From assembly GCA_000091205.1 (NCBI GenBank), contig AP006493.2: 64,000 nucleotides of DNA, one strand, 5' to 3'. Below the pieces are notes generated by a model. That model did not search any database, was not told the origin of the DNA, and was given only the letters and a program-made list of their open reading frames with translations. Positions 24,647 through 25,750 of this stretch are shown in pieces. This DNA is from Cyanidioschyzon merolae (lineage: Eukaryota). Made by a program: the position numbers and the translations under genes. Within the stretch, counting starts at the first letter, position 1. Each line of letters opens with the position of its first letter.

Positions 24647-25750
24647 GGCACTGGTCTACAAGTGGATTCCGTTTGATTGAGCTTGCAGACACTCGGCTAC
24701 GTGCAGACGTTCCAAAAGACAAATTATTGCTCAGTGTATCGTCAGCGCGTCCAGTGAGGCGTGATGACGCAGCTGGGGCGCCGCCGACGACCTCGGCGGT
24801 GACTGCGGCGGCCGCCTGCGCCTGCACCTGTGGCTGCGCATCATCGTCGCTTGAGGCGCGGCGAATACAGACGCGTCTCCATGGCTGTACGCGGATCTCG
24901 GATGCAATGCGCGGCGGATTGCTGATACGCGTCGAAGACGCTGGGATGCCAGGTGCGTGTCCGTGTGCTGGCGATGAGAGAAATTTAGGATTCGAGGCGC
25001 GCTTTATGCTCCGCCAAAAGAAATAAGAGCCACAGCTGCGGCCGCTTCCCGTGATACATAGCATCTGGGCTTGACTGCTGTCGCGGCGGTGCGATACGCG
25101 TAGTACCCGCCGATACGCTGCGAACAAGGTTTGGTCTCGGAATAGCGTTGACCGGGACGGCGCTGGGTCCACAGGCTTCGCCGTTGTAGAGGTCGATTTG
25201 CGTGCGCTGCAGAGGAAGCGATCAAAGAGCCTATGCGAGAGCCGATACGTCCGAAACGCATGGAGTGTTCCGGGACAGCTGCTTGCAATTTTTTTCATTC
25301 ACAAAACGTTTACTTTGGTCAACGTTCTCCGATTATGCGCTTTTTCTTTTCTTTTTGGGTTTTTTTCAGTGCACGGTGAAGTATCCATCAAACTCCCCTC
25401 CAAGTTACATTACCGATACTTCTTCTCGGATATTCTGGTAGTTTCATACGTCCTATCGTGTGCGGTCGCTGCACGGAGACAGAGCGGCGTCATCTCGAAA
25501 GCTGCTTGCAATACCAAGGGCGTCTCGGTAAAATTTCCTCTCCGTCCTTTTTATTCTGAATTATTCCAAATGTCTAGCTTATACAGTCTTCACGTTTGCA
25601 ATGATCGCCATCGATTCCAACAAAATAACTCTTCTCTGAGTCACGCAACGCTTAGAAACGTATATTGGAGTCTTTGCATACACTCGAAACCTGCACAAGC
25701 TCCACAATCGTAGGATTTCAATAGATTTACACTTTCGCTTTTCGTATCAA
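24647..25750. promoter_or_regulatory. ~1.1-kb divergent intergenic region shared by the EF-G (minus) and phytoene desaturase (plus) genes; presumed bidirectional promoter
   Basis: Two nuclear genes for plastid-type proteins are transcribed away from each other across this interval. It contains a T-rich stretch (25290-25370) and copy A of the dispersed repeat. No promoter motifs were verified. Confidence 0.3.
25375..25490 (+). repeat. dispersed coding-like repeat, copy A (partner at 34273-34447, inverted)
   Basis: A ~55-bp core (tctcggatattctggtagtttcatacgtcctatcgtgtgc) is about 80% identical to the reverse complement of 34345-34395. Flanking similarity continues (ggtga...ccatca... upstream; cggagacagagcggc downstream) across a 48-nt in-frame indel. 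Confidence 0.7.

What the first reader, a model, noticed from the sequence alone, without database searches (positions are those of the whole stretch)
25375..25490. Dispersed ~120-170-bp repeat with a coding-style substitution pattern: copy A at 25375-25490 (plus) and copy B at 34273-34447 (minus)
The two loci share a ~55-bp core at about 80% identity, far beyond chance in 64 kb, with flanking similarity on both sides. In one shared reading frame, 6 of the 8 core substitutions are synonymous third-position changes, giving Y-F-F-SDIL-V-VSYVLSCA versus Y-F-L-SDIL-L-VSYVLSCA. The copies also differ by a 48-nt in-frame indel, after which the peptide similarity resumes (AARRQSG versus AARRQNG). Synonymous changes plus an in-frame indel suggest selection on an encoded hydrophobic peptide. 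The copies could be paralogous small exons or small ORFs, or a gene fragment carried by a mobile element. Both embedding ORFs in the six-frame track are 171 aa, but outside the shared ~45-aa segment they are unrelated. Copy A lies in the EFG/PDS promoter region and copy B in a GC island within the AT-rich block.
Basis: seen in the sequence. Interest (0 to 1): 0.55.

Follow-up and report, generated by a model that had tools for sequence, protein, structure and literature searches.

The report
Known red-alga retroposon tail, not coding

Summary
The repeat is real: 45 of 55 bases match, E=5e-10. It is not a conserved peptide. The window is Cyanidioschyzon merolae 10D.

Copy B (33864-34499 plus poly(A) 34500-34506, + strand) matches positions 4-636 of the published CMe-1A consensus at 78.6%. 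That stretch is what Bao & Jurka (2013) call TE-N2_CMe, a transposable element of about 70 copies with no assigned class.

Copy A (25290-25499, minus strand) is a related short element of about 290 nt that has lost 45 and 20 nt. A 13-nt target-site duplication, AGCTGCTTGCAAT, flanks it.

Related metagenome contigs gave about 70 distinct insertion sites, and these show the signature of LINE-type retroposition:
- a variable T-run at one end, which is poly(A) on the other strand;
- duplications of 10-23 nt;
- truncation at variable points at the far end;
- longer copies that run into a reverse-transcriptase ORF on the poly(A) strand.

Across copies, substitutions show no codon periodicity (0.159/0.156/0.172) and 82% of indels break the frame. 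Rfam found no match, and RNAalifold found almost no conserved structure.

Verdict: an ordinary, already catalogued transposable element. The one new point is that these unclassified elements look like LINE-dependent retroposons.

The parts
25296..25499 (-). Copy A: body of a short (consensus about 290 nt) LINE-tail retroposon, read on the minus strand. Its 5' end is the family's canonical CTCGAGCC (here TTCGAGAT). It carries two internal deletions relative to the short-form consensus: 45 nt between GTGC microhomologies near 25463/25464, and 20 nt between GGCGT microhomologies near 25488/25489.
   Evidence: nhmmer family profile hit, E=3e-62. Alignment with full short copies L015, L089, L033 and L041. 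Family alignment.
25290..25295 (-). Poly(A) tail of copy A. It is a T-run on the + strand, 7 T if 25289 is counted.
   Evidence: Read directly from the sequence. Every family copy starts with a T-run of variable length at this end.
25277..25289 (.). Target-site duplication of copy A on the poly(A) side: AGCTGCTTGCAAT. It extends to 16 nt with one mismatch from 25274.
   Evidence: the repeat finder direct repeat D1, 25274-25289 with 25497-25512, 94%. blastn self-hit.
25500..25512 (.). Target-site duplication of copy A on the 5' side of the element: AGCTGCTTGCAAT.
   Evidence: At least 14 other family copies have the same architecture, with 10-23 nt duplications.
33864..34499 (+). Copy B: a complete TE-N2_CMe-type element. 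It is the reverse complement of positions 636 to 4 of the published CMe-1A consensus. No Fanzor1 ORF is attached.
   Evidence: blastn of the CMe-1A consensus (Bao & Jurka 2013, Additional file 2) against the window: positions 4-636 match 34496-33864, 78.6% over 636 columns, E=1e-149. Collinear three-way alignment. Orthologous copies L092 and L035 are 98.8% identical.
34500..34506 (+). Poly(A) tail of copy B (A7). No target-site duplication could be recognised.
   Evidence: Sequence. Flank comparison.
25409..25463 (+).
   Evidence: In copies not selected by my search pattern this segment is 68-77% conserved, no more than the rest of the tail at 63-89%.
34346..34400 (-). The 55-nt core in copy B, equivalent to CMe-1A consensus positions of about 100-155.

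Best explanation
Both loci are dead, non-coding copies of one family of non-LTR (LINE-type) retroposons of Cyanidioschyzon merolae. All members share a 3' tail of about 200-290 nt.

Inferred mechanism: an RNA carrying this tail and a poly(A) end is reverse-transcribed at a nicked chromosomal target by the reverse transcriptase of the autonomous 'retroelement' LINEs. This is target-primed reverse transcription. It leaves poly(A), a duplication of variable length, and often a truncated 5' end.

Copy A is a short-form element of about 290 nt. It sits on the minus strand, 251 nt upstream of the phytoene desaturase (PDS) start codon, and was later shortened by two microhomology deletions. Copy B is a full-length TE-N2_CMe element on the plus strand. 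The 55-nt core is simply the best-preserved stretch between two old copies from different subfamilies. The open reading frame lies on the antisense strand of the element and is open already in the family consensus, which explains why many copies keep it.

Shown: family membership, poly(A), duplications, truncation pattern, physical linkage of the tail to a reverse-transcriptase ORF, and absence of coding constraint.

Inferred: that the LINE enzyme mobilises the short forms in trans, and that it does so by recognising the shared tail.
For: Organism:
- PDS and EF-G of the window are exact matches to C. merolae 10D proteins XP_005536562.1 and XP_005536561.1.

Family:
- A profile of the two peptides found 8 ORFs carrying the same segment.
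- nhmmer gave 182 hits, which reduce to about 70 distinct flanks.

Anatomy:
- One end is sharp and begins with a T-run of variable length. The other end either stops exactly at ...GGCTCGAGG or continues into a longer element.
- Duplications of 10-23 nt abut both ends in at least 14 loci, including copies truncated at profile positions 182, 224, 227, 234, 235, 244 and 279.
- Copy A has AGCTGCTTGCAAT on both sides.
- A TE-N2-type copy (L088/L079/L061) has the 13-nt duplication TACACGTATCGAT.

Link to a LINE:
- In L079 the tail is preceded, on the poly(A) strand, by a reverse-transcriptase ORF. Pfam RVT_1 scores E=2.4e-23.
- That ORF is 84-85% identical to C. merolae proteins named 'retroelement, alive'. 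Its nearest solved structures are R2 and LINE-1 ORF2p.
- Coverage of this 2.9-kb copy by other loci climbs steadily towards the 3' end, as 5' truncation predicts.
- Of 70 loci, 29 run into a longer body, 21 stop at the canonical 5' end, 16 are truncated inside the tail, and 4 are cut by a contig end.

Copy B equals CMe-1A positions 4-636.

Not coding.

Not a catalogued or structured RNA: no Rfam match, an RNAalifold consensus of only -2.84 kcal/mol, and no tRNA-like part.

Literature:
- Nozaki 2007 (PMC1955436) reports 26 non-LTR elements in C. merolae.
- Bao & Jurka 2013 (PMC3627910) describe CMe-1A and TE-N2_CMe as lacking terminal inverted repeats and as unclassified.
Against: - No target-site duplication could be found for copy B, and only one TE-N2-type copy has a clear one. 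This may reflect their age, at about 20% divergence.
- No endonuclease domain and no intact full-length LINE were recovered. All reverse-transcriptase-bearing copies in hand are 3 kb or less and are frameshifted.
- The longer TE-N2-type copies (L030, L080) do not run into reverse transcriptase. They run into a Fanzor1 ORF on the opposite strand.
- No empty site was found. The Cyanidiococcus ortholog lacks the element, but its intergenic DNA cannot be aligned.
- No conserved RNA structure was detected that could serve as a recognition element.
- Nearly all family copies come from metagenome contigs of C. merolae-like strains, not from the 10D genome itself.
Confidence: 0.85

Rival explanations
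1. The repeat is the 5' terminal region of a DNA transposon. This is how the Fanzor1 (TnpB-like) element CMe-1A is drawn in the literature. TE-N2_CMe and the short forms would then be internally deleted non-autonomous derivatives moved by an unknown DNA-based mechanism. The T-run would be part of the terminus, not a poly(A) tail.
For: Copy B is collinear with CMe-1A positions 4-636. In that consensus this region lies upstream of, and in the same orientation as, the 734-aa Fanzor1 ORF. L080 and L030 show this arrangement. Bao & Jurka could not find duplications for CMe-1A. I found none at the ends of the full-length copy L080.
Against: - The T-run varies in length between copies.
- Duplications vary from 10 to 23 nt. 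This is typical of target-primed reverse transcription and not of any cut-and-paste class.
- The far end is truncated at many different positions.
- The same tail sits at the 3' end of a reverse-transcriptase ORF on the opposite strand.
- There are no terminal inverted repeats (also Bao & Jurka).
- In at least 6 loci the Fanzor1 body starts at about position 648 without this region in that orientation.
Confidence: 0.08
2. The shared segment encodes a small hydrophobic peptide or exon under purifying selection.
For: 7 of 10 core mismatches between A and B fall on one codon phase. The family consensus has one frame with no stop over 287 nt. Prokaryotic gene callers called ORFs in this frame in 8 protein clusters.
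Against: - There is no periodicity across 61 or 18 copies.
- 82% of indels break the frame.
- Copy A's second deletion is 20 nt.
- Copy A has no ATG in the frame, and a nearly identical strain has a 1-nt indel in the upstream part of the ORF.
- An open frame of 95 codons in one of six frames of a T-rich sequence has roughly a 10% chance. This is my own estimate from base composition.
- The only protein-database hits are other copies of the element.
- The sense strand of the element is the other one.
Confidence: 0.03
3. The repeat is a multi-copy structured non-coding RNA gene, or a reusable promoter or regulatory module placed upstream of genes.
For: Copies often lie within a few hundred bases of gene starts: copy A before PDS, L003 beside RelA/SpoT, and L010/L016 beside G6PD. 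There is a weak C/D-box-like Rfam hit at E=8.
Against: - No Rfam family reaches significance.
- RNAalifold finds almost no consensus structure.
- Copies carry duplications, poly(A) and truncations, and occur in either orientation relative to neighbouring genes.
- In a genome this compact, intergenic DNA is nearly all close to a gene start.
Confidence: 0.03

Closest known systems
TE-N2_CMe and the 5' 635 bp of the Fanzor1 element CMe-1A of C. merolae (Repbase; Bao & Jurka 2013, Mob DNA 4:12, PMC3627910)
   Same: Copy B aligns end to end with CMe-1A consensus positions 4-636 at 78.6% and stops where TE-N2_CMe stops. The organism is the same. The paper gives about 70 copies of TE-N2_CMe and about 150 of CMe-1A, each about 80% identical to the consensus, with no terminal inverted repeats.
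   Different: The paper left both elements unclassified and found no duplications. Here the region carries a variable T-run, some copies have variable duplications, and the region is homologous in reverse orientation to the 3' tail of reverse-transcriptase-bearing LINEs. Copy A matches the CMe-1A consensus only over positions 88-154. It belongs to a sister subfamily with an extra A-rich 3' extension of about 95 nt.
Non-LTR retrotransposons of C. merolae: 26 class I elements, annotated 'retroelement, alive' (Nozaki et al. 2007, PMC1955436)
   Same: The long form of the repeat carries an RVT_1 reverse transcriptase 84-85% identical to these annotated proteins, one of which is on the same 852,849-bp chromosome as the window.
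   Different: The two window copies contain no reverse-transcriptase sequence. The 2007 count covered only elements related to reverse transcriptase. Short tail-only copies such as A are not mentioned in the passages I read.
SINE/LINE pairs that share a 3' tail, for example eel UnaSINE1/UnaL2 and CR1- or L2-dependent SINEs (from my own knowledge, not tested here)
   Same: A short non-autonomous element carries the same 3' tail as an autonomous LINE. It has poly(A) and duplications and a discrete 5' end, seen in 21 of the 37 copies that do not run into a longer body.
   Different: There is no tRNA-, 7SL- or 5S-derived Pol III head. The short form is entirely contained in the LINE's 3' end, so it could equally result from a truncation hotspot. 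No conserved stem-loop was detected.
Tail- or end-derived non-autonomous partners of LINEs, such as RIME/ingi in trypanosomes or HAL1/L1 in mammals (from my own knowledge; HAL1 is cited as an analogy by Bao & Jurka)
   Same: These are non-autonomous derivatives made only of LINE sequence and mobilised in trans.
   Different: RIME keeps both ends of ingi and HAL1 keeps ORF1. Here only the 3' untranslated tail is kept.

Membership tests
TE-N2_CMe / CMe-1A 5' region (Repbase family) | Collinear nucleotide match to the family consensus over its whole length | tested here: met
   Copy B: CMe-1A positions 4-636 match window 34496-33864, 78.6%, E=1e-149, with the alignment. Copy A matches only positions 88-154 through its ortholog L001, so A is a related subfamily and not a TE-N2_CMe member.
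Non-LTR (LINE-type, target-primed reverse transcription) retroposon | Poly(A) or A-rich 3' end of variable length | tested here: met
   T-runs of about 5-9 nt, differing between copies, lie at one end of every copy. Copy A has T6-7 at 25289-25295 and copy B has A7 at 34500-34506.
Non-LTR (LINE-type, target-primed reverse transcription) retroposon | Target-site duplications of variable length directly abutting both ends | tested here: met
   Copy A has 13 nt, or 16 with one mismatch. At least 14 other loci have 10-23 nt, and one TE-N2-type copy has 13 nt. None was found for copy B.
Non-LTR (LINE-type, target-primed reverse transcription) retroposon | Variable 5' truncation with a common 3' end | tested here: met
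   Coverage of the 2.9-kb copy rises towards the 3' end. Tail copies bounded by duplications end at profile positions 182-279. TE-N2-type copies end at CMe-1A positions 250, 256, 282, 350, 405, 553, 563, 566, 581 and 636.
Non-LTR (LINE-type, target-primed reverse transcription) retroposon | An autonomous partner that encodes reverse transcriptase and carries the same 3' end on the same strand | tested here: met
   L079, L056, L124 and L101 have reverse-transcriptase and C-terminal ORFs upstream of the tail on the poly(A) strand. All copies in hand are frameshifted.
Non-LTR (LINE-type, target-primed reverse transcription) retroposon | An endonuclease domain (APE or REL type) in the autonomous element | tested here: inconclusive
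   No copy longer than about 3 kb was recovered. Pfam found nothing in the ORF upstream of reverse transcriptase. Look-ups of the annotated C. merolae retroelement genes failed.
Classical Pol III SINE | A head derived from tRNA, 7SL or 5S, with internal A and B boxes | tested here: not met
   ARAGORN finds no tRNA-like sequence in the window. Rfam finds nothing at either locus.
Protein-coding exon or small ORF under selection | Excess of third-position and synonymous change across homologous copies | tested here: not met
   Rates are 0.159/0.156/0.172 over 61 copies. In 18 unbiased copies they are 0.236/0.262/0.296, Kruskal p=0.79. A-B mismatches outside the core fall 10/12/14.
Protein-coding exon or small ORF under selection | Indels that preserve the reading frame | tested here: not met
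   111 indels are not multiples of 3 and 24 are. Copy A carries a 20-nt deletion.
MITE / cut-and-paste DNA transposon | Terminal inverted repeats and a duplication of fixed length | tested here: not met
   There are no terminal inverted repeats at either copy. Duplication length varies from 10 to 23 nt. Bao & Jurka also report no terminal inverted repeats.
Structured non-coding RNA family | A conserved secondary structure with compensatory changes, or an Rfam match | tested here: not met
   RNAalifold on 25 diverse copies gives -2.84 kcal/mol and 13 scattered pairs. A local run on 38 copies gives -0.07. Rfam finds nothing.

The most novel reading that the evidence does not exclude
TE-N2_CMe and the first 636 bp of the Fanzor1-bearing element CMe-1A were left unclassified in 2013. 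They may be LINE-dependent retroposon sequence lying antisense to the Fanzor1 gene. On this reading the roughly 150-copy Fanzor1 element of C. merolae is tied to the LINE tail family in one of two ways. It may spread as the 5' extension of a retroposed antisense transcript. Or LINE tails and the Fanzor1 body may repeatedly target each other's ends: in at least 6 loci a tail's poly(A) abuts position ~648 of the body, with different tail truncations. Either would be an unusual partnership between an RNA-guided-nuclease element and a retrotransposon.
Probability: 0.15. Interest if true: 0.6.

Novelty: already known. Interest (0 to 1): 0.2.

Why it matters
For the scan, this removes a false lead. 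The apparent synonymous-substitution signal between two short repeats came from ten mismatches, and it disappears once about 70 family copies are compared.

For C. merolae biology the finding is modest. The genome is described as almost free of transposable elements (0.7%, 26 class I elements). Tail-only copies such as A, which sits 251 nt upstream of the PDS start codon, are not mentioned in the passages I read, so they may add to that load.

Two Repbase entries listed as unclassified, TE-N2_CMe and the 5' end of CMe-1A, now have a testable classification. Any link to the Fanzor1 element would interest people who study RNA-guided nucleases carried by transposons. That link is not established here.

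Tried and rejected
- **Rfam.** The gathering-threshold scan of the whole window and permissive scans of both loci gave only chance-level hits.
- **RNA structure of the tail.** I found no meaningful consensus. I therefore do not claim a recognition stem-loop.
- **A third window copy at 51933-51964** (I8). It lies inside ordinary sequence and was not found by the family profile, so it is chance.
- **Empty-site search among held loci.** There were no hits, as expected because every locus was selected for carrying the element.
- **Cyanidiococcus yangmingshanensis EF-G/PDS locus (L137).** It has no element, but its intergenic DNA cannot be aligned, so it is not a clean empty site.
- **DNA for the annotated C. 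merolae 'retroelement, alive' genes P0040 and P0041.** They are not on record.
- **Endonuclease domain or intact LINE.** I found only truncated, frameshifted copies.
- **Copy B as a 5'-truncated reverse-transcriptase LINE.** I rejected this. TE-N2-type long copies contain no detectable reverse transcriptase or LINE C-terminus, and B ends at the TE-N2_CMe boundary.
- **Duplications for copy B and for full-length CMe-1A in L080.** None were recognisable.
- **The 55-nt core as a specially conserved functional motif.** Its high conservation in my first set came from the search pattern I used. In unselected copies it is 68-77% conserved, like the rest.
- **A first attempt at that unbiased profile.** It was misregistered by one column and I discarded it.
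- **Literature search for a described C. merolae SINE.** I found nothing.

Full report
**1. The observation**

Window 25409-25463 (+) and 34400-34346 (-) share 45 of 55 bases, E=5e-10 for a 64-kb search. A degenerate 47-nt pattern built from both copies matches nowhere else in the window and never in shuffles. Weaker collinear blocks flank the core on both sides.

Both embedding ORFs are 171 aa. They are mechanical ORFs with TTG and GTG starts.

Two details need correcting. The large indel is 45 nt, not 48.

**2. Where the window comes from**

An RNase MRP RNA gene shows the window is eukaryotic. The PDS and plastid EF-G proteins are exact matches to Cyanidioschyzon merolae 10D XP_005536562.1 and XP_005536561.1, on an 852,849-bp chromosome.

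Copy A lies in the 1.1-kb spacer between the divergent EF-G (22334-24646, minus) and PDS (25751-27478, plus) genes. Metagenome contigs from nearly identical strains carry the same locus with the same insertion.

**3. The repeat is a large family**

- A profile of the two peptides found 8 called ORFs that share ...RGEVSIK.P.SKLHYLYFFSDILVVSYVLSCAEPA...AARRQNG. I used these only as handles to fetch DNA.
- Nine loci aligned over about 290 nt.
- A family profile then gave 182 hits. Clustering by flanks reduced these to about 70 distinct insertion sites.
- The window itself holds only copies A and B.

**4. Anatomy and orientation**

- The left end is sharp. It always starts with a T-run of variable length, followed by CATTGACAAAACGTTTAC.... 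The sequence to the left of it is unrelated between loci.
- The right end takes one of three forms. It stops exactly at ...GGGCGTCGGCTCGAGG, stops earlier at scattered positions, or continues into a longer element.
- Direct repeats of 10-23 nt abut both ends in at least 14 loci, including truncated copies.
- In the long copy L079, the strand on which the T-run reads as poly(A) carries a reverse-transcriptase ORF upstream of the tail. Pfam RVT_1 scores E=2.4e-23. The ORF is 84-85% identical to C. merolae proteins annotated 'retroelement, alive'. Its nearest solved structures are R2 and LINE-1 ORF2p.
- Coverage of this copy by other loci rises steadily towards the poly(A) end.

Poly(A), duplications of variable length, 5' truncation and an upstream reverse transcriptase are the standard signature of target-primed reverse transcription. 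I state that from established knowledge of LINEs.

**5. The two window copies**

*Copy A* runs on the minus strand from 25499 to 25296, with its poly(A) at 25295-25290. AGCTGCTTGCAAT lies on both sides, at 25277-25289 and 25500-25512.

Against full short copies, A starts at the canonical 5' end. It has lost 45 nt between GTGC microhomologies and 20 nt between GGCGT microhomologies. The 20-nt loss is not in frame.

*Copy B* is on the plus strand. I found the published CMe-1A consensus in Additional file 2 of Bao & Jurka 2013. Positions 4-636 of that consensus match window 34496-33864 at 78.6%, E=1e-149. The alignment is collinear to the last base of the region that the paper equates with TE-N2_CMe.

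An A7 run follows at 34500-34506. B carries no Fanzor1 ORF, and I could not recognise a duplication.

A and B thus belong to two subfamilies that share about 200 nt of tail. A's subfamily has an extra A-rich 3' extension of about 95 nt.

**6. Is anything encoded?**

- The family consensus happens to have one stop-free frame on the antisense strand. This explains the repeated ORF calls.
- Substitution rates by codon position are 0.159/0.156/0.172 across 61 copies.
Those give 0.236/0.262/0.296, with column-level p=0.79.
- Indels break the frame in 111 of 135 cases.
- Between A and B the third-position excess exists only inside the core. It has P=0.02, or 0.06 after allowing three phases, and the pattern outside is flat.
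- The core is no better conserved than the rest of the tail in unselected copies.

Coding selection is rejected.

**7. Other readings**

- Rfam finds nothing, and there is no tRNA-like head.
- There is no conserved secondary structure.
- There are no terminal inverted repeats.

The only serious rival treats this region as the terminus of a DNA element, as CMe-1A is drawn in the literature. That view does not explain the variable T-run, the variable duplications, the scattered truncations, or the reverse-transcriptase linkage.

**8. What stays open**

- *Short form.* 21 of the 37 copies that do not run into a longer body begin at one nucleotide. This points to a discrete short master element or to a truncation hotspot. 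Long copies with the same diagnostic bases exist (L063, L056), so I cannot decide between the two.
- *Missing parts.* No endonuclease domain or intact LINE was recovered.
- *TE-N2-type long copies.* They continue into a Fanzor1 ORF on the other strand, not into reverse transcriptase.
- *Junction with the Fanzor1 body.* In at least 6 loci a tail's poly(A) abuts position ~648 of the Fanzor1 body, with different tail truncations. I have no explanation for this recurrent junction.
- *Source of copies.* Nearly all family copies studied come from metagenome contigs of C. merolae-like strains, not from the 10D assembly.

**9. Novelty and verdict**

Copy B is a catalogued Repbase element. The reverse-transcriptase-bearing relatives are annotated in the C. 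merolae genome and were counted in 2007. The finding is therefore already known as a dispersed transposable element, and the coding interpretation is wrong.

The one addition is a proposed classification. TE-N2_CMe, the 5' end of CMe-1A and the short form look like LINE-dependent retroposon sequence read from the strand opposite to the one published. Interest is low for the finding as given. The Fanzor1 association is a side lead worth one whole-genome check.

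Noticed in passing
window 1236-1666 (minus): RNase MRP RNA gene. Rfam RF00030 scores 81.5 bits and matches the full-length model.
   Followed up: no
window 50682-50881: A tandem duplication of a 100-nt unit, two copies at 98% identity.
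   Followed up: no
window 16582-16822 (+): A fragment matching CMe-1A consensus positions 2841-3084 at 70% nucleotide identity. This is the C-terminal part of the Fanzor1/TnpB-like ORF. Amino-acid identity to the L042 ORF is 40% over 90 residues.
   Followed up: partly
window 29321-31238 (+), including ORF 30516-31193: The 226-aa ORF has copies at about 30% amino-acid identity in 24 other loci. It is weakly similar (27.6% over 145 aa) to the Fanzor1-like ORF of L042. This looks like a degenerate CMe-1-like element inside the low-GC block at 28-36 kb. Pfam gives only a sub-threshold zinc-finger hit.
   Followed up: partly
window 34506-35340 (+): Another dispersed repeat, about 72% identical to stretches in L049, L047, L114, L063 and L033. 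It begins exactly where copy B's poly(A) ends. It does not match CMe-1A.
   Followed up: partly
window 32065-32865: 63-66% nucleotide similarity and 38-46% amino-acid similarity to sequences in L127, L129, L116, L090, L020, L049 and L047. This is a further old interspersed repeat of unknown kind.
   Followed up: no
L066:1045-1060, L033:340-370, L073:1490-1525, L045:1771-1784, L046:13244-13248, L056:4266-4284: In at least 6 distinct loci a LINE-tail copy ends with its poly(A) 0-30 nt before position 648-703 of the CMe-1A consensus, the start of the Fanzor1 body. The tail subtypes and 5' truncations differ between loci. In the published consensus the same place holds TE-N2 in the opposite orientation. 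Unexplained.
   Followed up: partly
L023:1945-2478, L050:843-1367, L015:979-1566: Pairs of tail copies lie poly(A)-to-poly(A) in inverted orientation. This fits one element inserting at the A/T-rich tail of another.
   Followed up: no
L042:421-2645: A nearly complete CMe-1A-type Fanzor1 ORF lies directly upstream of, and in the same orientation as, a LINE-tail copy.
   Followed up: partly
L137 (Cyanidiococcus yangmingshanensis JANCYV010000010.1, 123008-137320): The gene order FANCI-like, EF-G, PDS and RelA/SpoT is conserved with C. merolae. The EF-G/PDS spacer is 888 nt against 1104 nt in C. merolae. It cannot be aligned and has no copy of the element.
   Followed up: yes
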